Both the position numbers and the translations under genes were made by a program. A DNA stretch of 64,000 nucleotides. Origin: Eledone cirrhosa (taxonomy: Eukaryota). Shown one piece after another: positions 720 to 63,039 of the stretch (position 1 is the stretch's first letter; the number at the start of each line of letters is the position of its first letter). Below the pieces are notes generated by a model. The model was not told where the DNA came from. It saw only the letters and a program-made list of their open reading frames with translations, and did not search any database. The stretch is taken from the NCBI GenBank assembly GCA_964016885.1, contig OZ024740.1, positions 294,624,001 through 294,688,000 on the forward strand, in the 5' to 3' direction.

Positions 720-783
720 TTGGAAAAGAGAAAAGAAAAACGGGAAGAAGCTCAAAAGGCTCTGGAGAAAGCTGAAGAAATTG
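720..783 (+). CDS. FEN1: Flap endonuclease 1, internal exon (LEKRKEKREEAQKALEKAEEIG; helical arch)
   Basis: Poly-T + CAG acceptor ending 719, GT donor at 784; matches the FEN1 'LAKRSERRAEAEKQL' segment; phase 1 joins the exon at 3628. Upstream exons are outside the window. Confidence 0.85.
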
Positions 784-894
784 GTGAAGATTTATTTCAT
801 TCTTGACATCTTTTCATAATCCTTTACTTGTTGCTTCATCCCAACAAATGAAATGACCAAAACCCACTTGATAAACATGTTTCTCTTCTAATTT

Positions 895-2700
895 CTTCCT
901 GTTGTGGTTCACCACCCAATCCTCACAATATTGTGGTTCACCACCCAGTCCTCACTGTAGTGTAGTTCACCACCCAGTCCTCACTGAAGTGTAGTTCACC
1001 ACCCAGTCCTCACTGTAGTGTAGTTCACCACCCAGTCCTCACTGTAGTGTAGTTCACCACCCAGTCCTCACTGTAGTGTAGTTCACCACCCAGTCCTCAC
1101 TGTAGTGTAGTTCACCACCCAGTCCTCACTGTAGTGTAGTTCACCACCCAGTCCTCACTGTAGTGTAGTTCACCACCCAGTCCCCACAGTAGTGTAGTTC
1201 ACCACCCAGTCCTCACTGTAGTGTAGTTCACCACCCAGTCCTCACTGTAGTGTAGTTCACCACCCAGTCCCCACAGTAGTGTAGTTCACCACCCAGTCCC
1301 CACAGTAGTGTAGTTCACCACCCAGTCCTCACTGTAGTGTAGTTCACCACCCAGTCCTCACAGTAGTGTAGTTCACCACCCAGTCCTCACTGTAGTGTAG
1401 TTCACCACCCAGTCCTCACAGTAGTGTAGTTCACCACCCAGTCCTCACAGTAGTGTAGTTCACCACCCAGTCCTCACTGTAGTGTAGTTCACCACCCAGT
1501 CCCCACAGTAGTGTAGTTCACCACCCAGTCCCCACAGTAGTGTAGTTCACCACCCAGTCCCCACAGTAGTGTAGTTCACCACCCAGTCCCCACAGTAGTG
1601 TAGTTCACCACCCAGTCCCCACAGTAGTGTAGTTCACCACCCAGTCCTCACAATAGTGTAGTTCACCACCCAGTCCTCACTGTAGTGTAGTTCACCACCC
1701 AGTCCTCACTGTAGTGTAGTTCACCACCCAATCCCCACAGTAGTGTAGTTCACCACCCAGTCCCCACAGTAGTGTAGTTCACCACCCAGTCCTCACAATA
1801 GTGTAGTTCACCACCCAGTCCTCACTGTAGTGTAGTTCACCACCCAGTCCTCACAGTAGTGTAGTTCACCACCCTGTCCTCACAGTAGTGTAGTTCACCA
1901 CCCAGTCCTCACAGTAGTGTAGTTCACCACCCAGTCCTCACAGTAGTGTAGTTCACCACCCAGTCCTCACTGTAGTGTAGTTCACCACCCAGTCCTCACT
2001 GAAGTGTAGTTCACCACCCTGTCCCCACAGTAGTGTAGTTCACCACCCAGTCCTCACAATAGTGTAGTTCACCACCCAGTCCTCACTGTAGTGTAGTTCA
2101 CCACCCAGTCCTCACTGTAGTGTAGTTCACCACCCAGTCCTCACTGTAGTGTAGTTCACCACCCAGTCCTCACTGAAGTGTAGTTCACCACCCTGTCCCC
2201 ACAGTAGTGTAGTTCACCACCCAATCCTCACAATAGTGTAGTTCACCACCCAGTCCCCACAGTAGTGTAGTTCACCACCCAGTCCTCACTGTAGTGTAGT
2301 TCACCACCCAGTCCTCACTGTAGTGTAGTTCACCACCCAGTCCTCACAGTAGTGTAGTTCACCACCCAGTCCCCACAGTAGTGTAGTTCACCACCCAGTC
2401 CTCACTGTAGTGTAGTTCACCACCCAGTCCTCACTGTAGTGTAGTTCACCACCCAGTCCTCACTGTAGTGTAGTTCACCACCCAGTCCCCACAGTAGTGT
2501 AGTTCACCACCCAGTCCCCACAGTAGTGTAGTTCACCACCCAGACCTCACAGTAGTGTAGTTCACCACCCAGTCCTCACAGTAGTGTAGTTCACCACCCA
2601 GTCCCCACAGTAGTGTAATTCACCACCCAGTCCTCACATTATTGTGGACCACCATCTACTCCTCGCGGTAGTGTGGTTCACCACCCAGTCCTCACAGTAT
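895..2700. repeat. 29-bp minisatellite, about 60 copies (GTAGTTCACCACCCAGTCCTCACTGTAGT)
   Basis: Head-to-tail units with 29-nt period (e.g. 962, 991, 1020); a few recurrent variants (CT/CC, CTG/CAG); no spacers. Confidence 0.97.
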
Positions 2701-19660: not shown

Positions 19661-20375
19661 CTGCAGCTGTTGCAGAGGTCAAAATTTGGTCGAATTCTTC
19701 TGATGAACTTGGGGAACAGATTCTTACAAATGAAGTGAAACAAAAAGAGGCAGTTGTTTGGGACTTTCAGTGCTTATGGAGAATGCTTGATTGTGTATGT
19801 ATGTGCCTGTAACTCCTGATGGAGCCATAGAGGGACTGTGATGACATGCTGTATGTTTTGGGCATGGCAGAACCCTTCCCTCTCCAGGTCTGAACATAGT
19901 AAATATTTTTCAGAGAAAAAATATATAAGAAAAATTGACTTCAATACTGAACTGATACTTTTTTATCCACCTTGAAAGGATGAAAGGCAAAGTTGACTGT
20001 AGCAGGATTTTTAACTCAGAGCGTAGCAAGCCAGAATGAATGCTCAAAGTATTCCATCTGACGTTCTAACGTCTGCCAATTTGTTACCCACCTTGTAGTA
20101 GTAATAAAACAAAAGCTTGGAGTAAAATAATTAGACAAGACCTAGTATTAGATCTAATAGAAGACAGTTGATTAGATGTAATGTGTAAAGCCATTCCACT
20201 TGATCTAGACTACAGTTCAATGATAATGTTTTGAATTTATATTGCTCCTCCAAGATTCCTATTGTCATCATGTAATATCTTTTTGAATTTAATTTCATCA
20301 AAATATTTATTATTTATTTCGTTTCTGAATTTGTTTAGCAAGATTCTTTATCTGAAATCGTGTGTTGAAACCGAT

Positions 20376-20896
20376 ATTGTTATACTTTGGGAGGGTCATG
20401 TTGCCAATAAGAAACACACGCACCAGTTGCTTTCACTTCAATTTAATTTAATATATATTTATAAATTTACAAATTTATAAATTTCTGGTTGGTTGGTTGG
20501 TTGGTTCCACAACCAGATAGTTGTTTATATATATATAGTCATAGTTCTTTCGTCACACACTCTGTGACCTCTTCAGTGACTGGGGATTTCTTTCTTCGTT
20601 TCTGTGCCTTTCCTTTCTTCTATCCTACGCCATTTTTCAAAAATGGCGTAGGATAGAAGAAAGGAAAGGCACAGAAACGAAGAAAGAAATCCCCAGTCAC
20701 TGAAGAGGTCACAGAGTGTGTGACGAAAGAACTATGACTATATATATATAAACAACTATCTGGTTGTGGAACCAACCAACCAACCAGAAATTTATAAATT
20801 TGTAAATTTATAAATATATATTAAATTAAATTGAAGTGAAAGCAACTGGTGCGTGTGTTTCTTATTGGCAACATGACCCTCCCAAAGTATAACAAT
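20376..20896. mobile_element. 521-bp foldback palindrome carrying a hammerhead motif in each arm; probable Penelope-like inverted pLTR insertion
   Basis: Arms are reverse complements around C20638 (GCCATTTTT-C-AAAAATGGC); the only difference seen is one GGTT unit. Confidence 0.85.
20695..20739 (+). ncRNA. Minimal type I hammerhead ribozyme motif (mirror copy on - strand at 20537-20581)
   Basis: AGUCA-CUGAAGA-G-GUCACA(GAGUG)UGUGAC-GAA-AGAACU-A/UGACU: 5-bp stem I, intact core, 6-bp stem II, rudimentary stem III, CUA cleavage triplet. Confidence 0.8.
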
Positions 20897-20940
20897 TTAT
20901 TATTTAATTTCCTTTAATATCTTTATAATTCAATTTTCAG

Positions 20941-24060: not shown

Positions 24061-24407
24061 TTACAGAATTTTTCTATCTAGCATGGCCTGAAGTTGTTCT
24101 GGAATTGGAGCACCTTTCTGAAGAAATAAACTTCTACACAATTTAAGTTCTTGAACTAAGGTTTTAATATGTTCTTCTAGCTGTTTGTTTTCTTCTTTGA
24201 GCTGAGAGACACGTTTTTGAGTTGTGTCTCGCAATGATTTAGCTTTGATTCTACTTTTACGTACAGCAATATTGTTTCGTTCACGTTTACTTTTATATTC
24301 ATGATTATTGGGTGTGGTATTATCATCTCCTAAATCTTGTAGACTTTCAGTCTCTGAACTTTTTAAATTACACACATCTCCTTCATTTATAGTTAATAAA
24401 GCGTTAT
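24061..24407 (-). CDS. CEBPG: C/EBP-gamma-like bZIP transcription factor, exon 2 (basic region + leucine zipper)
   Basis: EYKSKRERNNIAVRKSRIKAK...RVSQLKEENKQLEEHIKTLVQEL...LFL closely follows C/EBP-gamma; polypyrimidine + CAG acceptor at 24410-24408; TAA stop at 24063-24061. Confidence 0.88.
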
Positions 24408-25094
24408 CTGAAAAGAAAAAAAAAATTAGATTTAGTTATAATCGCCTAAATATGAGATTAACATGAGTATTGTTTCATAATGTAATTAAGAATAAGTATT
24501 GTTTATAATTAATCACCCGCGGTAATGCTGCGAACGTGTTGGTTTGCCTCAAAATTACCGTTGACTCTTGTGATATGGTGTATGACCGATTGTCGCACTT
24601 GGTGGTGAATTGATGGTTTTGGTGTTTTTTTTCTTTCTCTCTCGCTTTGATCATATATTTTGTGCGTTCCATGTGTAAGGTCCCAAGCAATAATTAATTG
24701 TATTTATAATAAGTGTTTATATTTTCATTCTGTAAGAACTCTAAACAATGAGTAATCTGATTTATACAACTGTGAACTTCAAAATTCCTAAACATAATTC
24801 GACTTTTTTTTATCATTTGTTGATAGAGGAACAAAATTCTCGCTACTGAGTTAGTTGACAGGGAGGGTAATAAGAGACTCAAAAGATATTCGACATTATA
24901 AACAGGATCTTAATAATCCGAAAAATTATAATCTGCGACGAAAAAAAACAAAACAATAATTACGTTTGTTTTTTCTAGCTATTGGTATAAAAACCGATAA
25001 TTTTTTTTTTTTAATTATTATACCTTCAAAACCTTAAACTAATCTCTTTTTGTTGAATGTGAAGAGAAGTGGAACATGTTGAAAACTTTCAGCA

Positions 25095-25365
25095 AAATTG
25101 CATCATTTGTGTGGAGAAGGGAGCTGTGAAATGTTAGTCGTGTGTTGACAATCAGCAATTTTCCAGTGTAACTTTATATAACTTTATGCTTTACAGCTAA
25201 AAACCTATTAGAAATATATTATTCCTTTTACTTTACACCCGTTAAACTGATACATTTTTAGTTGTAAAAATAAAGTTATATAAAATTACTCTGGAAAATT
25301 GCTGGTTTGTCAACACACGACTAACAGTTCATCCCCACCCTTTTCTCACACAAATGATGCAATTT
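25095..25365. mobile_element. Inverted-repeat (MITE-like) element in the CEBPG intron, ~100-bp imperfect arms
   Basis: AAATTGCATCATTTGTG...GTTAGTCGTGTGTTGACAA...CAGCAATTTTCCAG is mirrored by CTGGAAAATTGCTG...TTGTCAACACACGACTAAC...CACAAATGATGCAATTT. Confidence 0.85.
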
Positions 25366-26279
25366 ATTATTTCTCTTACTTAACATTAGTTAAAATTTGT
25401 AATTACTTTTGAATTATTAAAGAGAGAGCTAGTAAAGTACACACTAATGTATTTAATTTAGTGAATTTTCTTAGTAAATTATCAAAATCTAAGAATTGGA
25501 TAGGAAGTATTTATTCACTTAATGAGTGTAAAGAAAGAGAAACGAAAGATTTTAGGGAGCTATTCTGGAAAAATCGCCAATCGTTTTAATGTTCATTGAT
25601 AAATAGATCAAGTGTCAATAAGTTAAACTTGAAATTTTAAAATAAACGAAGTAAATAAACAAATAGAATAGTGGAATAAATAGCAAGTACTTTTCAAATG
25701 AAATAGTAATAATTGTTTCTACTTTTGGCACAAGGCCAGGAATTATCCCAGTGTATTACTGGTACTTTATTTTATCGACCCCGTAAGGATGAAAGGCAAA
25801 GTTAACCTCGGCAGGATAATAATCTGATTTTAGTATTTGCTAATTTTCTTTATATCGCTGGATCTCAGTCGTTGTCGACGATGAGTATTCTAGTTATTCG
25901 ATCAAGGTTGACCGAGGGCTAAACAACAGTTGCATTAGGTAAGTATATGATGGTGTATTAAATAACAATGTATACAATAATTAATAACAATATATCAGAA
26001 TCATATTGTGAAAAGTGAAAAAAAAAATTGAACCATTCTAACTAAAAGTTAGGAGGGCCATAGCCTTATAGGGGCTCAGTAAGAAGGTTTCAAAAGAAGG
26101 CCCCGGGTTGAAGATTTCTTTGGGGAGAAGGCGTCAAATGTGTCTATTTTCATGAGAACACTTGCTACGCTACTGCATCCACTATCAACATAGAAAACCT
26201 AACCAAGCAACATCGATGAAGTTTATGTTCAATTTGGAATAAAGATTTCGATAAAAAAAAAAAGAACAGATATACCAAC

Positions 26280-26514
26280 CTTCGTAAAGAGTAGTAGTAT
26301 TCAATATACTGTCGGCAATGTTAGGGATTGAAATGTCTGGCTTTTGATCGACAGACGATTGAATAGTTTCAGTGTTTTCGCGTTGTTGTACTGAATGAAG
26401 GAAGTCTGATATCTCTGAAAATCTTGCGGGGTCTGTAAGTGAATTAAACGACGGTTCTCGTGCACCTAAGCTACAAAAATCCAGATCGTTGTCAGACATT
26501 TCCATTGTGTTCAT
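26280..26514 (-). CDS. CEBPG: C/EBP-gamma-like gene, exon 1 (MNTMEMSDNDLDF...TTTLYE)
   Basis: Open frame from ATG 26514; donor GTTGGT after 26280; phase 1 G+AT gives Asp in frame with exon 2 (193-aa product). The N-terminus is not recognisable by homology. Confidence 0.7.
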
Positions 26515-26957
26515 TGCAAACAAGTTTGAAGAAAATAATATAAAAGAGACAATATTAGCAAGGTACCCTATTAAGCGAGATGAACAGTACCTTATGAATA
26601 ACAAGTGGTGAACAGGCGTTTCTTGCGCATGTAGCACTAAATCTGTATCAATACACGTTGCCTCGTTATTTAGAAATAAAATAAAATAAATATACTTCCT
26701 AATATTTACGTATTATTGTTATTTTGTAAATATAATCAACATTAAAGATTTGTCTTTTTCATCAGAAATAATACATGAATTAAAGAGAGTAAAATTTATA
26801 GAGAACTATTTTTTTAATGCGTATGTATTGCAAATCTCAGGCTTCTAAAAATAGTTACTACGCAATACACAGAACAAAGCTATATATATATAGCACTTTG
26901 TTCCGTGTATGAACATAAATATATGTATATTTATTTATATGTATATATTTATTCTTC

Positions 26958-32703: not shown

Positions 32704-33561
32704 CGAGGGCAATCCCAAAAGTAAGGTCTCCAAAGCGATGGGGACGCAGAGAAACTGTTCGTATGGCTGTTGTGATTGGTGCTTCCTTCACTGGGATGCT
32801 CAATCTTGGCTTGGCAGCTGTTGAGAATGGAGCTCCCGTTGAACGCTACCGCCAAGTGCGAAGTTCGCGCAGTTATTCGGTTTTTGAACGCAAAAGGCGT
32901 TGAACCGATTGAAATTCATCGGCAATTGACTGAAATGTATGGACAGTCGTGCATGGATGTCAAAAACGTTCGCAAGTGGTGTAGAGAGTTTACAGCCGGT
33001 CGTACTGAAATTCACGACGAACAAAAGAGCGGGAGACCGTCAATTTCCGACGAGACAGTCGCAAAGGTTGAGGAAAACATGCGCACACCTTTCGGTTAAA
33101 ATCCTGTGGATGGTGCTTCGGGAAACCTCAGGAACCAAAATGCAGAGAGAATCCATAGTGATCTCCCGATCTTTACGTATGTTTTCCTCAACCTTTGCGA
33201 TTGTCTCGTCGGAAATTGACGGTCTCAAGCTGTAAACTCTTTACACCACTTGTGAACGTTTTTGACATCCATGCATGACTGTCCATACACTTCCGTCAAT
33301 TGGGGATGAATTTCAATCGGTTCAATGCCTTTTGCGTTAAAAAAACGAATAACTGCGCGAACTTCGCACTTAGTGGTAGCGTTCAACGGGAGCTCCATTC
33401 TCAACGGCTGCCAAGCCAAGATTGAGCATCCCAGCGAAGCGCGTGCATGCTTGTTTGGGAGTGAAGGAAGCACCAATCACAACAGTGCTGCCAACAGCCG
33501 TACAAACATTTTCTTTTGTGTCCCCATCGCTTTGGAGACCTTACTTTTAGGATTGCCCTCG
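32704..33561. mobile_element. Foldback mariner derivative made of two inverted left-end fragments
   Basis: TIRs CGAGGGCAATCCYAAAAGTAAGGTCTCC flanked by TA; both arms encode the mariner N-terminal HTH (EVRAVIRF...EIH.QLTE.YGQSCM...KWC...GRPS); no catalytic domain. Confidence 0.9.
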
Positions 33562-35998: not shown

Positions 35999-37231
35999 TT
36001 ACTGTCTATGTTCATTAATAAAATGTGAAGTAAAACTATAAACATCATGATAAATGTCACCACATAAATTGCACTGCCAAGGGTTTTCAGGGTCATGAAG
36101 TCCCATATGCATCACATAAAGTGCATTGTCAAAATAAAGAATATTACAATGTGGGCAAGTAAAACTTCGACTGTTGCCAATACATTTGTCTGTAACGTTT
36201 GAACTAGAAACTGTTGCTGCTGAAGAATGAGAGCTTGTTTCTGCAATAGTACTTGTTACTCCAATATCTTTGATAAAAGGTGGAGTTCTTGGAGTTGGTG
36301 ACTGACCACTTTCAAGGGATTGTGGAGGTGTTTGACGAATAGGGAGATGATCTTTAGAAAGCAAAACAGATGGTTGCAAAGAAAAATATGTATAAGAAGA
36401 TTTGGCGAGCCCTGTAACTGAGATGTGCTCTGGAACTGTACTACTCTGTGGAGCAGCAGATACAAGGGACCTATTTGCTTGCTCCTGAAAATCAGAAACA
36501 GACTGTTTATTTAATGTTACATTAGAAAGATTTAACATGCTTGTGTTATGAAAAGAATCCTGAACTGATAAACTTTCATCAATAATATAGCAATCATCTT
36601 CATTGGTCTCAGATTCCATTTTTACAGAAGGAACATTTTTAGAATATTGGACAGCTTCATTAGAATAATTTGTATTTGTGGCAGTCAATCGAGTGTCGGG
36701 TTCATTAACTCCATATTGATTAGTTGCAAATCGTAAAGAGGAATTATCAGCTGATGGTTGGTTAGGGAGTGGTATGAATCCAGACTGGAAAACTTTATGC
36801 TTAAAATGCATATGCTTTTTTAGGTCATATTTTCTTTTTGCGGCATACTCACAAAGATCACAGATGAAAGGACGGACATCGGAATGAACTACGCAATGAC
36901 TTACAATTTTGCTACGGAATGGAGAAGAAAAAGAACAGCTCTCACAGTGAAACAACCTACGTTTGTCATCGTCCAATCCACTTCCCTGAGTACTGTTGTT
37001 TCCTTTATCAATAGTTGTGTCGTCACTTATATCTGATACATTTCCAAGAAATGTTTGTGGTTCATTATGTACTTGATTGTGATGTATCAAATCTGAGTGA
37101 AACTCAGTAGTGAATGAACACTGATCACATTGGAAATGTTTCTCAACATGTGAGTTTTCCATAGAACTAGCAGAATCGTTCATGATGATAGAATCAACAT
37201 ATGAGATGGATATCAAACCTGCTCCAACAAC
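35999..37231 (-). CDS. Ikaros/Hunchback/Pegasus-like C2H2 zinc-finger protein, terminal coding exon (probable start ATG 37183, 394 aa)
   Basis: Three N-terminal C2H2 fingers and a C-terminal pair FTCPHCNILYFDNALYVMHMGLH-DPENPWQCNLCG...FTSHFINEH, typical of the Ikaros/Hunchback dimerisation fingers; acceptor TTTATTTCCACAG ending at 37232. Confidence 0.9.
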   Translation of the reverse strand, partial: VVGAGLISISYVDSIIMNDSASSMENSHVEKHFQCDQCSFTTEFHSDLIHHNQVHNEPQTFLGNVSDISDDTTIDKGNNSTQGSGLDDDKRRLFHCESCSFSSPFRSKIVSHCVVHSDVRPFICDLCEYAAKRKYDLKKHMHFKHKVFQSGFIPLPNQPSADNSSLRFATNQYGVNEPDTRLTATNTNYSNEAVQYSKNVPSVKMESETNEDDCYIIDESLSVQDSFHNTSMLNLSNVTLNKQSVSDFQEQANRSLVSAAPQSSTVPEHISVTGLAKSSYTYFSLQPSVLLSKDHLPIRQTPPQSLESGQSPTPRTPPFIKDIGVTSTIAETSSHSSAATVSSSNVTDKCIGNSRSFTCPHCNILYFDNALYVMHMGLHDPENPWQCNLCGDIYHDVYSFTSHFINEHRQ

Positions 37232-38141
37232 CTGTGGAAATAAAATAGCATAAAAATAAATAAAATACCATTTAAAATGGTTTTACATATTTTAATCATT
37301 TAATATAGTAGAAATATGATAATGAAAGAGCTAAACTGTTGTGAAACCTAACTCTTGACTACCTTTAGTGGAATTTAGCTGTTGCAAGCATATGGGCCAG
37401 GTCCCTGGTCTGAGGATATGCTTCTTCTTCCTTCCACCAGTCCTGGAGACCCTAAACAAGAATCACAAGCACTTCCCTTCCTCCTTTCATTAAATTTTGG
37501 TTAGAACAGATTTTTTGATGTCTCTCTTCCATTGATTGATTGATTCAAACAAGTCATCAGAATAGTTGACAGTATGGAACATTAACCCAGAAAGCGATAC
37601 AAGTTAAATGGCAATAACTAACAAGAATACATTGGGAACATTAAAGTTGATTAAATCAATGTTAGTACTAGACTGGTACTTTATTTTATCAACCCAGGAA
37701 GGATGAAAAGCAAAGTTGACCATGGCGGGATTAGAACACAGAATATAAAGAGCTAGAACAAATATCTTAATGGCATTTTATCCGACGCTCTACCAATTCT
37801 ACCAATAACACTAATTAAAACCATAACAACAATATTTCAGATTTGAAAAAGAAGTTATAATTAGTATATGACAGAGAAGCAATAAATACTTCACAATTGA
37901 TTAGTGTTTTTTGTTTTGTTTTTAGGGTGTTATTGTTTCTTATTCAGTTGAGAGTAGGCAACTTGGGTCTGCCTCACATGTCCTTCATTGATTTTACCTA
38001 GCAAGATAATAAAGTCACTGTCAATTGTTAAGGTCAGCTACATGAGGTCCTCAGATATAGTTAGCTCTTTGTTGTGCATAAGTGGAGATAACTGTTTCCG
38101 TTCTATTGCCTATCTCTATTCTGTCACTCAACTACCTCTAT

Positions 38142-38307: not shown

Positions 38308-39601
38308 CTTTATCTATCCACTTCTCAGTTAACAGAATACCTTTTGCTCCTACACAGAAGAGCTTACTTATATGCTGTGTGAAATCAAGTTGAGGCTCTC
38401 CTCTATCTCACCTCTTGCACTCAGCTAGTCAACTCCACAATTTCACCCGACATACCTCTCATTATGCCAACATTGACAGTGGAAGCTCTGAAATGCATTC
38501 ATTACCTTATGGGAAAAGAGTATCCTGTGTTTTGGAGTCCACTTTCTGTAAAGACACATACACTAACATCAGAGTAACATTAAGGCTTAGCTATACATCC
38601 CATGTTCTCTAAATTAATACTTACTTAATACATCTGAATCTGAAAATGAGTTCTAACTTCAAAAACGTTTGTCTTACCTGTAATTAGCACATGTTAAATG
38701 CTATATGTTAAGGCAGCCTCCTTCATACTATAACTGTGGACTGAAATCTGACTTGTATTAAACACTCTGCTTGCAATAATGCACTTCATATAATTGATGT
38801 CATAGAATAACGAGAGCTTTCTCTGATATAGTAAAAAGGCAATGTGTCATCATCAACTTTGCTGATATTCTTGTTAGATTGCTGTGACAGGTTTTTCATG
38901 AACGAAGTGAATTCTGATTGGTTAAAAATAACACTGGCAAAGTTGTTTCATAGCATTAATGATTGAGGAATTTGAGTTGATCTGGAAAGGACTTTCCAAT
39001 TCCTTAGCCACATTGCTGCAACATCAAATCATTCTTATACTTTTGTATAGTTTGATTCCACTCAAAGAATCATCATGATTAAATTAATTGTGCCATGGAA
39101 GAGTGATAGTAAGTAAGTATGTGAATGAAAGCTGATTAACTACAAGAAGTTGAAGGAGGTATGCAAAATCTGAAGGCAGAAATTGATTGTACTTCTTTCA
39201 GAAGTGGGCTGCTGTAGTTTTGTTGCATCATCAATATCACTGCTCACTCTTGTGGTCCTCACCTGAAAGTAATGGAAGAATATTAACTACTTACTGCAAC
39301 TGGAAGAAAAGCTTACTTTATATAATATGTAATATAATATACATATATATGTGGTTGGCATTAGGAAGGGCATTCAGCCATAAAAACCAATCCAGAAATG
39401 GTTCTGTGTGAGCAAGACACGGTCATCTGATCTGACTTTTCTCATAATGGGACAATCCATCTAATCCATGCTAGCATGGAAAATGGATGTTAAATGGTAA
39501 TGATATATATATATATATATATATAATTGGTGTTGGATGCTTAAAGTGTTCGTATGTGGTAGGCCGTATGAGCACTCGATGCCCTCGTAGAGCAGAGTAT
39601 G

Positions 39602-39849
39602 ATACCACAGAAAAAAGAGAATTAGTGTTGTGACGAAAGGAATTTATTGGACATATTACAATTGTTTCTCGGGCACATTTTAGGAAAATCTGCTTCGTAG
39701 AATCGAGACCTATCCGAGGACCGCATGTTTTCAGAGTCAGGTTTGATCACCACATCGATCGTGCCTCGAGCTGGTCGCCCAAGAAACAATTGTAATATGG
39801 CCAATACATTTCTTTTGTTGCAACACTGATTCACTTTTTTCTGTGATAC
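39602..39849. mobile_element. MITE-like element with ~73-bp imperfect inverted arms
   Basis: CACAGAAAAAAG...CATATTACAATTGTTTCT is mirrored by AGAAACAATTGTAATATG...CTTTTTTCTGTG. Confidence 0.8.
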
Positions 39850-39927
39850 CTATTATTTTTATCTAAAGACATTTTCTTTCCAATTCCATCCCGCCCGTCC
39901 CCTTAATCTATTTTATTTCTCATTCTT

Positions 39928-39963
39928 TCTTCTGATGAAGGACTAACATCCGAAACGTTAAGA
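39928..39963 (+). ncRNA. Minimal type I hammerhead ribozyme motif in a Penelope-like pLTR relic
   Basis: UCUU-CUGAUGA-A-GGA(CUAACA)UCC-GAA-ACGU-U/AAGA: intact core, palindromic stem III, GUU triplet. Confidence 0.82.
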
Positions 39964-42900
39964 TCCTCTTCCTGCTATATCAAGCGTTAACCTAATATAT
40001 ACCTTCCATATACTGTACCGATTGTGTTGTTATTTCTGTTTACCTTTTACATACATATATATATATATAGTAGTAGTTTTATTGGTAGCTCAGTCTTATT
40101 TATCTACAACATCCAATGCTGCTCAAAGGAAACCATGTTTGAATTTTACGTCTAAGTGTCCTAGCTGCATATTTAGGAGAGTCAAAGAAGTTGAAAGAAA
40201 GAGATAATAGATTTAGTGAGTGTAGAGTGGGATGAAGAATAGTTGAGATAGGAGTGGGAATCAATGGGCTTACTGTTGTTGTTTAGCCTTAGGTGAGCAC
40301 TGATCAAGATCTATGGTTAAAGGTATTCCAGGCATGACTATCACATCTTTTTGTATATCTAGGACTAAACTATTCAATATAACTGGCATTTTTAAAGACA
40401 TTAGAGTGTGATCTGAGGGATCAAATTTTGCTATTTGTAGCACATCGAGCAACTGTATAGATGTTCTCTGGACAGGTAAAGGGCACAGTTTCTTACCACA
40501 ACAAATTCCAACTCACAGTTTTTGCAACTATATGTAAAAACCCTCCCACATATCTAAATACTTCTACAACACCAAGTCTAGGAAAACTTTCAAAAATAGA
40601 ACATGTAACACAAAAATAGTAGTAGCACCAACAGCATTATTAGCCGTAAACACTATACTGAGATGCTCAGTATCAGTAAGTACAGTGGAGCACCAGTTAT
40701 CATGTTTGAATAGAGTTCACCTTCTTCACCATATTTGAGGCTACCACCAGACTGTAACACACACATGTAGAATCAATAGCTGCATGCCACAATGTGCAGA
40801 GAGAACTATACATCACATCTAGATGTTTGGTTGACAGCCAATATGTCATAGGTCAGTGCAATCAGGGCTGACCTGTGGCTAGCATGGCCCTGATCTCTGT
40901 GTGATGGAAGATGTGGGACATCTTATATATATATATGTGTGTTCATGTCAAGTAACCAATAGTAAAACAACCTCTTTGTCATTTTTCAGCTTGTCCATTC
41001 CAGTATGTTGGCTTAACAGAGAAATCTGATGGTTTGATGGTTGAAAGCATCATATCAGTTTATTGTGGAGCACAAAGAATGTGTTAGTGCACCTAAAATA
41101 TTCTTGTCCAATGCAGCCAAAGAGGTTCATCAATTAATGTCTATTTTCTATACTTGCACGAGTTAGACAGGATGTCATGTTAGGCTTGACAGGTCAGGTG
41201 ATCACGACTTGCTCATAGGATTCATTTTTGATTTGGTTTTCTATGGTTGGAAACTTTTCCTAATGCCAATCTCTTTACAGTATGTACAGGGAGCTTATTT
41301 TGTGGCACCGACCACTACCATGTTATAGAGTGGACTGGGTGCTTTTTGTCATGGCACACACATATCATCATCATCACCGTTTAATGTTTATTTTCCATGC
41401 TTCCATATGTTAGATGGGCTGTCACATTACAAGGCAATACAAATCTATAAATGTTTTCACATACAGTCCCATTCATTTAACTTCTGTATTTTGGATATTA
41501 ATGGCTTCACAGATTCAGTCCCACTCATTCAGCCTCAAAATTTGGATATCAATGGCCTCAAGTTATATTTTTACATATTACTCAAAGACTGAGTGAGTTC
41601 CAACATTATTTTTACTTGGTTTAAAGATATAAGTTCCTTATATCTAAGAGTAAAACAAAGTCTCATTAATATTTATAGAAAGCAAGTCATCTCTCTCTGT
41701 TTGAATTTTAACCCTACATTGCTCTATATATAATATGTATTTTTGTGGTAAAGGCTTTATCTCACATAATATAAAATCTATGAGATTTTGATATTATTTA
41801 TTCTGAGAACAATATTTTAACATCAGTATGAGCAGCTAGTTACGGCTGGTTTGAACAGAAAGAGTTGAGAGAATTATGGCCGGATTTGGCTGGTTTAAAT
41901 GTTAAACAGTTAAACCACTAAAATCTGATAAAAAAAATAATGATCAGCTTAGTTAGTCAATTACGCCAAGTATATCTCTCCTTCAATTTTCAAGCCTTGT
42001 TCCCTTCCATTATAAATTTATAGAGGGCAGTGGATTGGCAGTATCGGTAGAGGGTCGGACGCCATGCTTTCCAGCATAGTTATGTCCCTTTACGGTCTGA
42101 GTTCAAATCCCACCGAGGTTAACTTTGCCTTTCATCTTTACGGGGTCGATAAAATAAAGTACCAGTAATGCAGTGGGTAATTGCTGGCCTTGTGTCAAAA
42201 GTAGAAACAATTATAAATTTATAGTCTTGTAAGAAAACAATATTCAAAGTAAATGATCATAACCCAGTATCAAATCTAGGCTACAATCATTTCATGTCAG
42301 TTAGCTACCAATTTAGGAAAATCATGAAAGTCACAATACTATTTCTGCAGCCTTAAAACATGTCATTGTACTTGGTCAATTGAAATAAATATTTATTTCA
42401 ATTTTAATCTTTAGTGAGGGGACTTGAAAAGCAAAAGAATTCTAGAGATGCAGTTTTTTTAAGTGAATGTTTGGAAGACAACTGTTAATTAATGATTGTG
42501 AAAGTCTCAGAAGCCGGTGTGAAGCTTAAAGTTTGCTGGTTACATAGAATTTGGTTTCACTGTCAGCATACAAGTCAGAAGTATCGCATCAGCCTGTTAT
42601 ATCTAGCTCAACATTTCAATTTATAAAAAGAAAAAAGGGTGGTGGATTGGCAGAATTATTAGAGTGTCAGACAAAATGCTTTGGGCTACCTGTTCTGGCT
42701 CTTTACATTCTAAATTCAAATCTTACCAAGGTCAACTATGCCTTTTGTCCTTCCAGAGGTGATAAAATAAAGTAGCAGTAAAGTACTGAAGTTGACTTAA
42801 TTTGAGGACTTTGTGCTTAAATTAGAAATCAATTCATAACATGAGAAGTTATGACATACTATGGGCATGTAGTTAGAATGTCTCAGGAAAGAAGCGCATG

Positions 42901-45257: not shown

Positions 45258-45320
<63 letters not shown>

Positions 45321-45453
45321 CAATGAGTTATTTAATTTGTTGGTTATTCAACAAAATTAGTTTATAACAGATTAGAAGCACTCTACAATTTTCTTCTTGA
45401 TTATAATATCAAAAGTATTGATAAATGGAAACTATCTTTATAAAACCATATTT

Positions 45454-45513
45454 ATTTTATTATATATATTTCAAGGGTACCAACATTTTTGGTACGTTCT
45501 CATCAGATAAAAT
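45454..45513 (-). ncRNA. Hammerhead motif, same family as 62761-62822, decayed stem II
   Basis: AUUUUAU-CUGAUGA-GAACGUACC(...)GGUACCCUU-GAA-AUAUAUAU-A/AUAAAAU. Confidence 0.7.
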
Positions 45514-45655
45514 ATAAAGTTGTTTTACAGATAGTGACATATCCAAAACAAAAACTTATCGTTTTAAGTTCTGTTTGAATAGTTTGAATATATATATATA
45601 TATATATATATACAAAAAATATAAAGCAATCAAATTTTTGTTTAATGCATTTAAT

Positions 45656-46275: not shown

Positions 46276-46318
46276 ACGTTGCTGACGATAGCTAATAAGC
46301 TTGAAACTAGTACAGCGT
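46276..46318 (+). ncRNA. Minimal type I hammerhead motif
   Basis: ACGUUG-CUGACGA-U-AGCU(AAUA)AGCU-U-GAA-ACUAGU-A/CAGCGU: 6-bp stem I, palindromic stem III, GUA triplet, U-U mismatch at the base of stem II. Confidence 0.7.
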
Positions 46319-46937
46319 TCCTTTGTCCGTGTTGAACAAATGAGCAACAATGGCTTAATTCGGGATGTTTGTTTACAAACACACCGAGCATTATAATAAA
46401 TGTTCGGTGAATCCATACGTACATATATGTATGTGTGCATGTATGTATATATATATACATACTACTGTACGTCTGTATACATGTATGTATGTACGTATAC
46501 ATACTTATATTTAAGTAACAGCCGTACTAAGAGTGAGAAATGAAATTTTGTTTCATTTTTTTATAAATATATATATATATAACAAAGAAGGTGTGGTAAG
46601 ATACCAGGTGGACCATAACGCACCAGAGTACTTCTTTCATACATGTATGTGTGTGTGTGTAATCTGAGTTTTTCGATTTGTTGGCATTTATGCAAACAAG
46701 CCTCTTTTCAAGCTATGTCAGGACCCCGTCATTCTTGCTCTTGTATTGGCATGTAAACAGAACTGCAGACACTAATGTTTCTGGGTGATTATCCTTCATC
46801 AGTACAGTATACTGCTTACCTGCCAACTGTCAGAGCTAGTGAAAATATATGATATTTTCTGAAATATACAGTGACTGACTGGCCTGATCAGATCTGCATA
46901 TTAGCAGACCCACTGATCAGCCAGATTTGTTAGTTAT

Positions 46938-54655: not shown

Positions 54656-57600
54656 CATCATCATCATCACCGTTTTACGTCCGTTCTTCCACGCTAGCAT
54701 GGGTTAGATGGGTTGTCTTGTGGGCAGTGTCCGGTCGGCTGACCTTGTCTTGCTCATACGGGAGCTGATTCTGGCTTGATTTCTACAGCTGGATGCCCTT
54801 CCTAACACCAACCTCATTTACAGTGAGTGCTGGGTGCTTTTTTCCGTGGCGCCTACACGTCCACTTTACAGTGTGGGCTGGGTGCTTTTTTGCCGTGGCA
54901 CCTCCACGACCACTTTGCAGTGGGAGGGTGTGGGGGCATATTGTCTATATGCTTCAGCTTCGGCTTGTACCCGTGGGGGTCGGGTCTTCTGTATTACTGC
55001 GAGGTGTAATTGGGTAAGGTCGGCTTTTATCACCTCATCCCAGGTCTTCTTGGGTCTCCTCACTCCGCGGTTTCCATCGACTTATAGTGCTCTGCACCTT
55101 TTTATGCAGCTGTCATCCTTCATACACATCACATGTCCATACCAACGTAACCGCCTCTCCTGCACACAGCATTTGCTTCCTCTTATGCTCAGTCTCTCTC
55201 TCAATTCATTTATGCTTTGCTGTTCGCGTATATTACTATTACACATCCATTGGAGCATGCAGGCTTCGTTTCTTTCTAATCTACGCAAGTCTTCCACAGA
55301 CAGCACCCAGGTCTCACTACCATGTAACATTGCTGTTCGTGTACGCGCATCATACAGTCTGCCTTTCATTTTGAGGGAAAAACCTTTTGCAGCTAGCAGT
55401 GGCAGTAGGTCCCTGAACTTCTTCCACCCCGTTCTTACCCTGGTTATTGTACTTTCTGAACACCCACCTCCGCTGTTAATTCAGTCACCTAGGTAACAGA
55501 AGCTGTCTACTGTTTCTACAGAGCCCTCCCAGAGTTTAGTGGTACTTGTTTCCTGTGGCTGTTTGCTGTCCCAGCACAGCTGCTAAATGTGAAGCCTACC
55601 TGAGATCCCGCTACATCTCTTGTGTACCCATTGTTTGCATTCGGGGCAGAAAATGGAGTTCCTACCTACACCTTTCCTACATACTGAGCAAGGCCATTTC
55701 CCTGAGGGGAACTGGGTTCTGTTTTCTCGTCTACTTACAAGGACCTTAGTCTTTGTCAGGTTGACTTTGAGACCCTTTCTTTCTAGTCCCTGCTTCCAAG
55801 TTTGGAATTTCTTCTCTAGTTCTACCATAGATTCAGCTATAAGTGCGAGGTCATCTGCATACAGGAGTTCCCATGGGCATCTGGTCTTAAACTCCTCCGT
55901 TATTGCCTGCAGGACTATGATGAACAGGAGAGGGCTAAGAACAGAGCCCTGGTGGACACCGACCTGTATGCTAAATTCCTCCCTATGTTCATTGCTAATC
56001 CTAACTTTGCTGACTGCTCCCCTATACATGGCTTGTACAGCTTTCACAAGCCATTCATCTACTCCTAGTTTTCTAAGAGCCCACCAGATTATAGCACGGA
56101 GAACTCTGTCGAAGGCTTTCTCGAGATCGACGAATGCCAGGTAGAGTGGCTTACTTTTAGCTAGGTACTTTTCCTGTAACTGCCTCACAAGGAAGAGGGC
56201 ATCAGTGGTGCCTCTTCCTGGTACCAACCCAAATTGCATCTCATCTAGTTTCACCCAGACCCTAATCAACTGTGTTATAACTCTTTCTGTTACTTTTATG
56301 ACCTGGTCCATCAGCTTTATACCTCTATAGTTTCCTCTATCTAGTGCATCACCTTTACCTTTGTAGCAGTTGACAATGATGCTACTGCACCAATCCTTTG
56401 GTATGACACCTTCTAGTATTACCTGGTTAACAATACGTGTGGTTATGGTGTGGCCTACCGACCCAGATGCCTTCAGCATCTCAGCAGCTATACCCGATGG
56501 ACTGGTTGCTTTCCCAGTCTTCATATATTTGATTGCCTTACTTACTACACTGCTGGCCCCTCTGTAGGGTCTACTTGGGGTGGGGGTCTCTTCTTCCCAT
56601 GCATTCTCCTCATTTAGTAATCTATCATAATGGCTCTTCCACGCATCTTTCTTCTCAGCACTTGTGAGGGCAAGCTCAAGCCCACCTTTATTATTCTGGA
56701 TACACTTCTCTCCAATGACATCACAATTCTTTGCCACACTGCCTCGCAATCTTGAACACCTCCTGTTTCTCGTCCTCACGTTGCAAAACATGCTTGAATT
56801 TTCTATCCTCTGCTTCCCTCCTAGCTAAGTATACTTGCCGCCTAGCTTCGCTCCTGGTCTCTATGTAATGTACCCTGCTTCCCCCGTTCTTCCATTCTTT
56901 CCATGCCTGTCTCTTGGCCTTAACTGCCTCATCTACCTTATTGTTCCACCACCAAGTCACTCACCTCCTGCCTGTGGTCTTACTCCAGCCACAGATGTCA
57001 TCCGTCGCCTTTCTACATTGATGCATTGAATGCCTCTATCTGTTCTTCTTTACTGTTATCGGCGTTGAGTAAAATATCTTTAAATCTGTAACTGGCTGAG
57101 GGGTCTTTCAGCTTCCAGATCTTTCTTCTCCAGGCTGGCTTCCGTTTCCAGGTTCGTCTAGTTCTGACCGTGAGGTCGCTGACAACTAAGCTATGTTGGG
57201 AGGTACATTCCTCATTAGGGAAGGCTTTTGTGTTTACGACCATCCATCTGTCACGTCCTCTGATGAGGATAAAATCTATCTGACTAGATTGTTCCCCTGA
57301 TCTATAGGTGATCAGGTGGTTATTGGGTTTTTTTAAGTTTGTGTTACATATCGACATGTCATTGGCGTCGCAGAATTCTAGAAGCCTGAATCCTTCTTCA
57401 TTTCTTGTGCCAACTCCATGGACTCTATAGAAGCCGTCACGGTGTTTACCTATGTGTCCGTTAAAATCTCCTGCAATGATTAGGAAGTCATTGTCGTTTG
57501 TTAGAGCAGTAGTGCGCATTAGGGACTCGTAAAACCTATCCTTAAGTTCGTCTGGCAACCCCGATTGGGGTGTGTAAGCTGGTATTATTGTGGTAATTGT

Positions 57601-59560: not shown

Positions 59561-62261
59561 TCGCTCCCATTCTGAATTGTCATTTAGGAATTTTTTCATC
59601 ATTATACCTTTACAGCGGTAATTATTAATAAAAGTTATTAAAGTAAATTACTTTATTTTCTTTTTGTGAAATGTTAATTCAAGGTGTTCTTATATATTGG
59701 TATAAGTATAATGGTATTTCATATGATATATATAGTTAGGTATATTGGTTTTTATATATATAGAGATTGTAAATTGGCAGAGTTATTTGAACATTGGATC
59801 GAATGCTTTGTGGTATTCATTCTGGTTGTTTGTGTTCTCTGAGTTTAAAACCCGCCTAGGTTAACTCTGCCTTTCATCATTTCGAGGCCGATGAAAAAAA
59901 GTACCAGTAGAGTATTGACATCAATTTTTCCTCTATATCTTTTTCTCACTTCCTCTCTCCTGCTCTGAAAGAAATTGGCTGTGTTCAGACTTGGAGAGGA
60001 GATGGACTCCACCAAGTTTAAATGCCTAAGACATTGTATGTCACTACAGTACCCCTAAAATTCAATCAGGACTTAAGGGTCCATACATACATATATATAT
60101 ACACAAGGTACATTATTTCTTTTCTCAGTTTAGATTCCTTCCCTGACTAACATTCCTCGACTGGGAGCCAAGTTTGCAAATCATTGTTGTAGAATGTCTA
60201 ATGTACATTTTATTGTCAATCTAACAAACCTATCTAAGAAATGATAGTGCTCAATACATTGTATACCACTAGGGTGGTGAATTGGTAGAGCATTGGATAA
60301 AATGCCATTGTGGTATTTGTTCTGGCTTTTTACATTCTTAGTTCAAATCCTTTTAAGGTCAACTTTGCTTTTCATCCTTCTGTGGTTGATAAAATAAAGT
60401 ACCAGTTAAATACTGGGGAAGATTTAATCAACTTTGCCCTTCCTCCAATTTTGCAGCCCTTATGCCTAAATTAGAAATGAATATGTTGTTTACAACTTAG
60501 TAATGGTGCACATGACTTAAGTAACATAGAGCCCGATGAAGACTGATTCACAATCCTCTCTAGCAGAACACATGCTCTGCTCTTAACGTCTTGTAAAGTA
60601 AACCTAACAATTAAATAACGAAAGTATGGTGCAGTGAGGAGGGAGTGGCAGATACTACACCCCAGTCAAAGTGGTATATCTCAGCTGCACCCTGTGGATA
60701 AAATGCTGAAGGCAATGACATGGAGCACTAGGGAGATTATTATGTCTTTGACAAAGATGAAGAGTCCTCTCATGGCACCAGAACTAGGGAGGTTATCATG
60801 TCTTTGACAAAGCTAAAAAGTCCCCTCATGCACCAGGTATACTTTATCGTGGCACCAGCACCAGGTATACTTTATCGTGGCACCAGCACTAGGGAAGTTA
60901 TGTCTTTGTCAAAGCTGAAAAGTCATCCTGACTACCCAAAATAAAAGAACATATTTTCCTCAGTTTCAGATGAAATAATAAACATCAACCGATTTTATTT
61001 CATGTTAACATATTTATTGACATTATTAACACATGTATTTAGAATTGTTTTTGATGGAAACAAACAAAATCTCAGTTCCCCATTGAGAGAAAAACAAACA
61101 AACAATAGAACAAATAAAATTTTAAACAGTAATTTAACATGTTTCATTAAAGATGTAGACAAACACATTCAATGGAAAATACTTAAGATTTTAGAAATAT
61201 CACAGTTGGTTCAGGTTGCTAAAACAATAAAGATCTAAAGTATTAGGAAAGAAATAATGATGATAGTAACCTGGGATAAGAATAATTAAAATTGATATAT
61301 ATATATCTATTTTTATATATGTATGTGTGTGTACATGCGTGTATGTGTGTACATATATATATATGTATGTGTGTATATGTGTATATATATATATATGTGT
61401 GTGTGTATGTAAAAGAGAGAAGGAGCAGAGGTACATAGCTATTTCAGTAGTAAAATGATATTCACAACATGGAATGACTATTACATATCTATGAAAGAAT
61501 AATTAAGGTTGTTTATAGCTTTAACCAAATTTTTTCTTACACTACGATATGGAATGAAACAATTTTTTTTTTTAACAACTGTTGATTTATGAAGTATTGG
61601 GAATGTTTGAAATTTAAAATGTGAGTATCCCAACACAGGAATGGCTGTAATATGGTCAATCACTATAAATAATAGTTTAGAAAATCGAGTAAAGTAACCC
61701 TGGCAACAGAAAAGAGTGGACAGTAGAACCTGTGAGGTATCGAACCATGTATTGGAGAGACACGGTGCTGCATTCCTCAGAGGCACCTCTATCCATTTTT
61801 TCCATCTCCAGGGGTATTTTCTCAACTATTATTTATAGCGAGCAACTATATTAAAGTAATTTCTGCATTGGGATGCCCACATTTCAAATATCAATGTATG
61901 CTTTTTCTTTTTATTACTAAAACAGGATCTGCCAAAAGCAATTTTAAAACATTTTTGTAATAGTCGCAATTTAAACCTTGGAAGTTCACAAATAAGTAGG
62001 TAAATGTAGATAATATTAATCTATTGCAATTAATTAACTATTAATATAGATATAAAACGAAAACTTTAATGCTTACATTCTAAACTGTATTGCCAAAAAT
62101 ATTTAAAAATATTTTCCTATAAGAATTGAAAAAAACATTTGTAAAATAACATTATTATCAAATATTTTCTGATTAAACAATTTGTCATGACAATATGAGT
62201 CTTTAAAAAAAACGAACTTAATTATAACGTGTGTGTGTGTGCATGCATATATTATATATAT

Positions 62262-62870
62262 ATATTATTCAAAATATGAAGACGTTGACATAATCAAATT
62301 ATATATATTTCAGAGGTACTGTGCTGTTTTTTCAGTACGTCCTCATCAGATAAAATATATGAATTGATGTATGACATACTTCAACTGTCTTGATGGTTCA
62401 ATTCCAGTATTGGCAGTGATTTATTACAACAAATCTCAATATTTATATACACAAATAATAACATGATAAACTTAAATATGATGAAGAAGAAGATGTGGAG
62501 CGAGATATAAGTATAAGGAGAGGGTGAGTATGAGAAAATGTAAGAAGAAATAAATAAATAAATTTATTTATTTCTTCTTACATTTTCTCATACTCACCCC
62601 CTCCTTATATCTCGCTCCACATCCTCTTCTTCATCATATTTAAGTTTATCATGTTATTATTTGTGATATATAAATATTGAGATTTGTTGTAATAAATCAC
62701 TGCCAATACTGGAATTGAACCATCAAGACAGTTGAAGTATGTCATACATCAATTCATATATTTTATCTGATGAGGACGTACTGAAAAAACAGCACAGTAC
62801 CTCTGAAATATATATAATAAAACATTTTGATTATGTGAACGTCTTCATTTATTAATATTTTGAATAATAT
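62262..62870. mobile_element. ~610-bp foldback palindrome with hammerhead motif; probable Penelope-like inverted pLTR insertion
   Basis: Arms mirror around AA at 62560-62561 with a few small indels. Confidence 0.85.
62761..62822 (+). ncRNA. Type I hammerhead motif (damaged mirror copy at ~62296-62356, - strand)
   Basis: UUUUAU-CUGAUGA-GGACGUACUG(11 nt)CAGUACCUCU-GAA-AUAUAUAU-A/AUAAAA. Confidence 0.75.
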
Positions 62871-63039
62871 TAATAACTCCAGAAAACTTCTTTGTAGAGT
62901 GATTTTAATCTATTGTAAAACTATATTCATTGAGTAATCAATGAACCATATTAATCTTTGGTTATATATTATATATATATATATATATACAAACATGTAC
63001 TTCATCATTAGAGAAAAGCAGATGTATGATGATGATGAC

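What the first reader, a model, noticed from the sequence alone, without database searches (positions are those of the whole stretch)
62262..62870. Second hammerhead foldback element of a different family with the same architecture
Seen: ~300-bp arms, a 2-nt loop, and a hammerhead in the outer third reading outward from the centre, as in the 20.4-kb element, but with unrelated sequence. Its hammerhead matches the solo copy at 45454-45513 (TTTTAT-CTGATGA-GRACGTAC...GAAATATATATAATAAAA). Both arms share the same stem II mismatches, so the inversion postdates or homogenised them. Inference: a repeatable fold-back/self-priming integration mechanism produces non-coding ribozyme hairpins in this genome, possibly a non-autonomous element class.
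Basis: partly seen in the sequence, partly recalled or inferred. Interest (0 to 1): 0.72.

Follow-up and report, generated by a model that had tools for sequence, protein, structure and literature searches.

The report
Fold-back stump of Penelope-like retrotransposon
The mirror-image repeat with a hammerhead ribozyme motif is real, but it is most likely the ordinary, already described stump left when a Penelope-like jumping gene inserts into an octopus (TA)n repeat, not a new kind of ribozyme hairpin element.

Summary
The palindrome is real: arms of 298 and 309 nt, a 2-nt loop, outward-reading hammerhead cores. The right arm runs 92 nt past the palindrome (a one-sided 'tail' shared with the solo copy). 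The whole unit is bounded by a 15-19-nt target-site duplication in a (TA)n tract. The left hammerhead has lost a strand of stem I. Reads show a very abundant family with one common end exactly at the left arm's tip, depth falling several hundredfold towards the centre, and 8 strand-switch joints at other positions. So the fold point is not fixed and the palindrome does not appear to move as a unit. Inverted 5'-truncated copy, tail, duplication, AT-rich target and minimal hammerheads on opposite strands are published Penelope-like element features. The stem II mismatch argument fails (the solo copy has it too), but rare letters shared by both arms support one template. No Penelope ORF was found in the window, no genome was available, and reads across the centre were not tested. 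The scan reported the same architecture before in two other genomes. Verdict: new member of a known kind, low interest.

The parts
62247..62265 (+). Left copy of the target-site duplication, (TA)n with an internal TT; its last 4 nt overlap the left arm tip, so 15-19 nt
   Evidence: 19-nt exact match to 62964-62982; the 13-mer with the TT break occurs only at these two places on either strand, among 55 TA tracts
62262..62559 (-). Inverted arm: 5'-truncated copy without tail, ending at the family's proximal end
   Evidence: arm alignment; (AT)n loose ends behind the equivalent position 62870 in 251 reads of X5, 284 of X6 and 20 contigs of X1
62298..62355 (-). Left hammerhead, core at 62349; 8-nt deletion removes most of the 3' strand of stem I, likely inactive
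62548..62573 (.). Fold centre: (AAAT)3, 2-nt loop AA at 62560-62561, (ATTT)3
   Evidence: 38-nt exact arms around the loop
62562..62870 (+). Direct arm: pLTR-like segment, pyrimidine-rich 5' part, TATA-like TATATAAA near 62668, no ORF
   Evidence: sequence; three-frame translation full of stops; TATA role is inference
62761..62822 (+). Minimal type I hammerhead: stem I 6 bp, core 62767-62773, stem II 8 positions with one C.C, GAAA 62805-62808, self-complementary 8-nt helix III, predicted cut after 62816
   Evidence: one compensatory pair against the solo copy; not matched by Rfam
62871..62962 (+). One-sided tail, 92 nt, ending at the family's distal end
   Evidence: aligns with the solo copy up to its (TA)n; family depth continues through it
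62964..62982 (+). Right copy of the target-site duplication
45319..45575 (-). Solo, non-inverted copy of the same family, with tail, inside its own duplicated TTGAA(TA)n target (45258 and 45584)

Best explanation
This is a single insertion, bounded by a duplicated (TA)n target, of the hammerhead-bearing end of an abundant octopus repeat family plus an inverted, tail-less copy of it, most likely made by a Penelope-like retrotransposon enzyme whose new DNA strand likely folded back on itself. Steps. (1) Inferred: a GIY-YIG endonuclease cut the (TA)n tract with a 15-19-nt stagger; the duplication itself is shown. (2) Inferred: reverse transcription began at the distal end (62962) and ran back through tail and hammerhead; that the family has two ends, 62870 and about 62962, is shown. 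(3) Inferred: synthesis stopped in the (ATTT)n tract, the AT-rich 3' end snapped back over a 2-nt loop and copied itself out to the proximal end 62870, where it was joined to the second cut. (4) Shown: the arms began from one template type and then drifted apart (3 substitutions, 4 indels, derived changes on both arms). The product has no ORF and is likely a dead end; a read-through RNA is predicted to form a 300-bp duplex that buries both ribozymes, so any effect would be as double-stranded RNA. Confidence is for the Penelope-type origin; snap-back against twin priming is about 60:40.
For: Target duplication around the whole unit, tail included. Tail on one arm only, shared with the solo copy, which has its own duplicated target. 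Left arm tip coincides with a common family end followed by (AT)n: 251 and 284 reads in two samples of a second study, 20 contigs in X1; 277 of 652 and 267 of 537 molecules end at 62865. Depth peaks on the hammerhead and falls from 322,542 to 328 (X1) and from about 1,500 to under 3 reads (X5, X6) towards the centre. 8 of 10 listed joints change strand, at other positions. Both arms share rare letters: at 62736 the other letter is in 292 of 315 (X5) and 248 of 265 (X6) reads; at 62840 in 1058 of 1174 and 1024 of 1088. Minimal hammerhead with self-complementary helix III that pairs in a dimer fold. Literature: inverted 5'-truncated copy, one-sided tail, duplication and junction palindromes (PMC3846280; PMC8557442 Fig. 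2 legend); dual minimal hammerheads 100-700 bp apart on opposite strands (PMC4209133; here 418 bp); two reverse-transcription starts delimit the tail, AT-rich cleavage on both strands (PMC11167929).
Against: No Penelope ORF was found: none among 46 ORFs of 100 aa or more by inspection, 14 of them scanned in Pfam gave only LINE-type RT/endonuclease, mariner, bZIP and zinc-finger hits, and a six-frame grep for recalled motifs gave 5 isolated hits that look like chance. The tail is 92 nt, not the published 30-40 nt. Rfam does not recognise the motif and the active fold is not the predicted minimum (stem I probabilities 0.0, stem II up to 0.10). Covariation on 3 rows is not above shuffles (161 of 500). 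The depth gradient mixes truncation with subfamily divergence below the 80% cut-off. Joint orientation is not given, and 4 of the 8 joints have sides short enough to be small local inversions. The centre (62520-62581) was masked.
Confidence: 0.82

Rival explanations
1. Same Penelope-type origin, but by twin priming: an enzyme dimer primes both target strands, one from the proximal start (62870) and one from the distal start (62962), and the two new strands are joined head to head.
For: The left tip sits exactly at a common family end. The anole enzyme nicks and extends both strands and starts at two sites (PMC11167929). 5 of 8 strand-switch joints have offsets of 34-40 nt, as unequal arms would give.
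Against: Here both strands would have to stop within 2 nt of each other, and the 20.4-kb element has a 1-nt loop too; this needs a shared RNA 5' end, while family depth near 62580 is about 0.1% of the peak.
Confidence: 0.3
2. A non-autonomous element class whose mobile unit is the palindrome itself, with a fixed fold point.
For: Two spacer-less palindromes in one window; no ORF; other family contigs reach at least 62575 (6 contigs with loose ends before 62604); the centre was masked, so a small subfamily folded at 62560 is not excluded.
Against: Depth falls about 1000-fold from hammerhead to centre in X1 and several hundredfold in X5 and X6; joints lie elsewhere and vary; the solo copy is not palindromic; a palindromic RNA is predicted to bury its own ribozymes.
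Confidence: 0.06
3. A solo copy inserted first and was later mirrored by a repair fold-back, or the arms were homogenised by gene conversion.
For: Shared rare letters could also come from conversion; AT-rich centre.
Against: The mirrored part stops at a family end, holds no host DNA, and lies inside one target duplication; arms differ by several independent changes.
Confidence: 0.04
4. A miniature inverted-repeat DNA transposon (fold-back MITE) that happens to hold a hammerhead-like motif.
For: Palindromic shape, TA-rich target; mariner remnants exist in the window.
Against: Ends are asymmetric (92-nt tail), the duplication is 15-19 nt rather than TA, single-armed copies exist, and conservation peaks on the ribozyme rather than on the ends.
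Confidence: 0.02
5. Assembly or library artefact (fold-back chimera).
For: Reads across the centre were not tested (masked); the best holder may be the assembly's own source.
Against: Arms differ by 3 substitutions and indels of 6-8 nt; the left-arm 6-nt form is seen in 2 contigs at depth 154 of 396; target duplication and family-specific ends are not produced by chimeras; flanks on both sides are different.
Confidence: 0.03

Closest known systems
Insertion units of canonical endonuclease-positive Penelope-like elements: pLTR, adjacent inverted 5'-truncated copy, one-sided tail, target duplication (PMC3846280; PMC8557442 Fig. 2; PMC8969392)
   Same: Head-to-head inverted copy, palindrome at the junction, tail on one arm, duplication around the unit, AT-rich or microsatellite target, hammerhead near the 3' end.
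   Different: No ORF in this unit or nearby; tail 92 nt against 30-40 nt; duplication 15-19 nt against the 8-10 nt cited for Adineta; loop only 2 nt.
Minimal type I hammerheads of metazoan Penelope-like elements (PMC4209133)
   Same: Long helix II, tiny palindromic helix III suited to a dimer, dispersed solo copies, pairs on opposite strands 100-700 bp apart.
   Different: G.U at 10.1-11.1 in these copies (G-C form in about 40-45% of family reads), a C.C inside helix II, no clear extra nucleotide after position 9, stem I of 6 bp.
Non-LTR retrozymes (bioRxiv 10.64898/2026.07.22.740005, part 1 of 5 read)
   Same: ORF-less, a few hundred nt, type I hammerhead, proposed to derive from Penelope pLTRs.
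   Different: Retrozymes are head-to-tail tandems; this unit is head-to-head, which gives no two same-strand ribozymes. A short same-strand tandem of the hammerhead does occur elsewhere in this family (table 5c).
Naiad clade (PMC8557442)
   Same: (TA)n target preference, inverted copies and tail; remnants reported in cephalopods.
   Different: Naiads lack canonical hammerheads; this family has one, which points to a canonical clade (inference; clade not determined).

Membership tests
Penelope-like element insertion unit (ORF-less stump) | [quoted passage not shown] | tested here: met
   orientation set by the hammerhead
Penelope-like element insertion unit (ORF-less stump) | Tail at one end only | tested here: met
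   62871-62962, two family ends; longer than the published 30-40 nt
Penelope-like element insertion unit (ORF-less stump) | Target duplication in AT-rich DNA around the whole unit | tested here: met
   for this copy and for the solo copy
Penelope-like element insertion unit (ORF-less stump) | Variable 5' truncation among dispersed copies | tested here: met
   depth gradient and scattered joints; partly confounded by subfamily divergence
Penelope-like element insertion unit (ORF-less stump) | Hammerhead motif in the terminal repeat | tested here: met
   descriptor and structure count
Autonomous Penelope-like element | Single ORF with telomerase-like RT and GIY-YIG endonuclease | tested here: not met
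   none at this locus or seen in the window; this copy is not an autonomous element
Autonomous Penelope-like element | The family's ends are attached to such an ORF somewhere in the genome | not testable with these tools
   no genome held; no match in metagenome or viral contigs
Rfam hammerhead families | Match to a hammerhead covariance model | tested here: not met
   none among 53 matches at E up to 1
Minimal type I hammerhead | Conserved core, helices I and II, palindromic helix III | tested here: met
   right arm and solo copy; left arm fails on stem I
Minimal type I hammerhead | Self-cleavage | not testable with these tools
   needs an assay; predicted fold in isolation is not the active one
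Non-LTR retrozyme | At least two same-strand hammerhead units in tandem | tested here: not met
   cores are on opposite strands
MITE / fold-back DNA transposon | Symmetric fixed ends with a short superfamily-typical duplication | tested here: not met
   asymmetric tail, 15-19-nt duplication, solo copy

The most novel reading that the evidence does not exclude
The parent is a short, wholly non-coding hammerhead family of octopus, mobilised in trans and present in very many copies, with an unusually long 92-nt tail, and its inverted junctions fall into two classes (loops of 1-2 nt and offsets of 34-40 nt). That would record two routes of second-strand priming and let genome data alone separate snap-back from twin priming in Penelope-like integration. 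A bolder form, in which the palindrome moves as a unit, is about 0.06.
Probability: 0.2. Interest if true: 0.45.

Novelty: new member of a known kind. Interest (0 to 1): 0.2.

Why it matters
As a single locus it matters little: it is a clean example of a described by-product. Its use is as data. How Penelope-like elements make inverted copies and tails is still open in the papers read here (PMC8557442, PMC11167929), and an abundant family with a readable target duplication, two fixed ends and many fold points could test the models by counting. Such palindromes would also be ready sources of long double-stranded RNA in an animal group known for heavy RNA editing (recalled, not tested).

Tried and rejected
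Whole-genome count of palindromes: no genome held. Exact 21-nt hammerhead motif in metagenome and viral contigs: 0 loci each. Sequencing-run search: no RNA holder listed, so expression and small RNAs are untested. Reads across the centre: the stretch 62520-62581 was skipped as a repeat and no listed piece spans the stretch. Rfam microRNA matches at the centre are all far below gathering scores and reflect any long hairpin. My descriptor missed the solo, 20.4-kb and 39.9-kb hammerheads and gave one unexplained hit at 46282, so it is no census. Covariation on 3 rows was uninformative. CTGANGA matches at 57260, 9664 and 46802 were looked at and not accepted as intact hammerheads. Earlier-finding look-ups by sequence and by place gave nothing. 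The stem II mismatch argument was rejected. A paper search for octopus + Penelope + hammerhead gave 5 papers, 4 listed, none about this family by title and abstract start; Repbase and Dfam could not be searched, so the family may be catalogued there.

Full report
Observation. The palindrome is in the sequence. The left arm spans 62262-62559, the loop is AA at 62560-62561, and the right arm spans 62562-62870; the arms have 289 matches, 3 substitutions (62600, 62624, 62837) and 4 indels of 6, 1, 8 and 8 nt. A scan of the window for palindromes with exact arms of 20 nt or more and loops up to 40 nt found three: this one, the 20.4-kb one and a 23-nt hairpin. Hammerhead cores lie at +62767 and -62349, reading outward. 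A type I descriptor gave 3 hits in the window against a mean of 0.1 in 30 shuffles, but it missed three other motifs, so it shows only that the right-arm motif is unlikely by chance. Rfam listed no hammerhead family among 53 matches. There is no BLAST match to the 20.4-kb element, and a 72% match over 189 columns to the solo copy. Corrections: only the right arm keeps stem I, the left has lost 8 nt there; in the 20.4-kb element the core lies in the inner quarter of the arm.

Host. A zinc-finger ORF at 35999-37282 is 89% identical to an Octopus vulgaris Pegasus-like protein and 72% to one from Argonauta, so the host is an octopod (inference). Neighbours are LINE remnants, a mariner remnant and a bZIP gene. 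No genome is held.

Missed anatomy. Alignment with the solo copy runs past the palindrome to 62962, where both copies meet (TA)n: a 92-nt tail on the right arm only. A 19-nt string, (TA)n with an internal TT, stands at 62247 and 62964; its 13-nt core occurs nowhere else in the window on either strand, among 55 TA tracts. Four of its letters overlap the left tip, so the duplication is 15-19 nt. The solo copy sits between two copies of TTGAA(TA)n. The unit, tail included, therefore went in as one event (inference from the duplication).

Family. One arm plus tail (62520-62955) was laid against 4 of the 7 listed runs at 80% likeness. Laid: 3185 of 16.5 million contigs (X1), 151 of 0.76 million (X4), 2673 of 12.5 million reads (X5), 2456 of 12.8 million (X6). 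X1 may be the assembly's source and is not independent; X5 and X6 are other samples of another study. Depth peaks on the hammerhead and falls towards the centre: 322,542 to 328 in X1, about 1,500 to under 3 in X5 and X6. Summed depth is no copy number, and the fall mixes truncation with subfamily divergence (428 and 413 reads carry a different upstream sequence before 62759). (AT)n loose ends stand behind 62870 in 251 and 284 reads and 20 contigs, exactly where the left arm ends. Of 10 listed joints 8 change strand, at 62694/62881, 62699/62733, 62712/62848, 62721/62759 (60 and 30 reads, both samples, 2 starts each), 62737/62775, 62757/62797, 62757/62865 and 62759/62797. Their orientation is not given, and four have sides short enough to be local inversions. 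The centre, 62520-62581, was skipped as a repeat, so neither spanning reads nor other folds at 62560 were tested. None of the 40 variant rows shown falls in the catalytic core; 122 rows were not shown. 62804 T>C (G.U to G-C at the base of stem II) is in 710 of 1583 and 578 of 1462 reads; 62812 A>G with a loose end in X4 gives another self-complementary helix III.

Timing of the inversion. The C.C mismatch and G.U pair are in all three window copies, so they say nothing about timing. But both arms have A at 62736, where 292 of 315 and 248 of 265 reads have G, and C at 62840, where 1058 of 1174 and 1024 of 1088 have T. Both arms thus come from one template type. Since then each arm has changed on its own: the two 8-nt losses are in the left arm (right arm and solo copy keep them), while the 6-nt loss is likely in the right arm (family contigs carry the longer form). 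This pattern also argues against an assembly chimera.

Ribozyme. The right motif has a 6-bp stem I, an 8-position stem II and a self-complementary 8-nt helix III that pairs between two copies in a dimer fold; alone, its predicted minimum fold is not the active one. One compensatory pair separates it from the solo copy, not above shuffles (161 of 500). The whole palindrome folds at -450 to -455 kcal/mol, 95% paired, with the core fully paired. Only an RNA begun inside an arm could present a ribozyme (inference).

Mechanism. Most likely a Penelope-type enzyme cut the (TA)n tract, copied the RNA from the distal end, stalled in (ATTT)n, and the new strand snapped back and copied itself to the proximal end. 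The 1-2-nt loops of both palindromes in the window favour snap-back. The exact stop at a family end, and the 34-40-nt offsets in 5 of 8 joints, favour twin priming from two starts. I put these at about 60:40. All enzymatic steps are inferred; no Penelope ORF was found (14 of 46 long ORFs were scanned in Pfam).

Prior knowledge. PMC3846280 (passages and Discussion read) describes direct plus adjacent inverted pLTR, a 31-bp tail, 8-10-bp duplications and palindromes at head-to-head junctions, and proposes self-priming, there on an antisense template. PMC8557442 (passages) draws the same arrangement as typical and reports non-autonomous members. PMC4209133 (parts 1-2 of 4) reports dual minimal hammerheads 100-700 bp apart on opposite strands, attributed to truncated elements. 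PMC11167929 (parts 1-2 of 4) ties the tail to two reverse-transcription starts and shows cutting and extension of both strands at AT-rich sites. PMC8969392 (passages) lists inverted pLTRs and short 3' extensions as known. The retrozyme preprint (part 1 of 5) defines retrozymes as same-strand tandems. Figures and supplements were not seen; they may hold longer tails or cephalopod families. Four paper searches were run; none listed this octopus family by title or abstract start. Two earlier scan notes on other genomes reach the same reading; I held it before seeing them, and they are unchecked leads, not support.

Verdict. Real, well explained as an ORF-less Penelope-type insertion stump (0.82); not an autonomous element, not a retrozyme, not a MITE. 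What departs from print is modest: a 92-nt tail and a possible two-class junction geometry. New member of a known kind; interest 0.2.

Noticed in passing
window 20305-20915: The 20.4-kb palindrome (arms 20376-20637 and 20639-20896, 1-nt loop) has an imperfect 20-nt direct repeat in its flanks (20305-20324, 20895-20915) and about 50 nt between that repeat and the left arm: a likely duplication and one-sided tail.
   Followed up: partly
window 39505-40068: A third, unrelated minimal hammerhead at +39932 with a short older inverted segment upstream (39603-39674 against 39777-39848, 102-nt spacer) and (TA)n on both sides.
   Followed up: partly
window 62699-62797 (family reads): 5 of 8 strand-switch joints have offsets of 34-40 nt; real junction geometry or a detection bias, unexplained.
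   Followed up: no
window 62758-62819 (family contigs, table 5c): Contigs of X1 and X4 go back from 62819 to 62758 over 18 other letters: a same-strand tandem of the hammerhead, which could form the active dimer.
   Followed up: no
window 32786-33439: 211-nt inverted arms, 93% complementary, around a Mos1-type HTH fragment: an internally deleted mariner-like element.
   Followed up: partly
window 35999-37282 and 24061-26712: Pegasus/Ikaros-like zinc-finger ORF and exons of a C/EBP-like bZIP gene on the minus strand (C/EBP label recalled).
   Followed up: partly
window 758-2600: 29-nt minisatellite of about 60 copies.
   Followed up: no
window 46282-46330: A descriptor hit for a hammerhead-like motif with a 6-bp stem I, not related to the three families; may be chance.
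   Followed up: no
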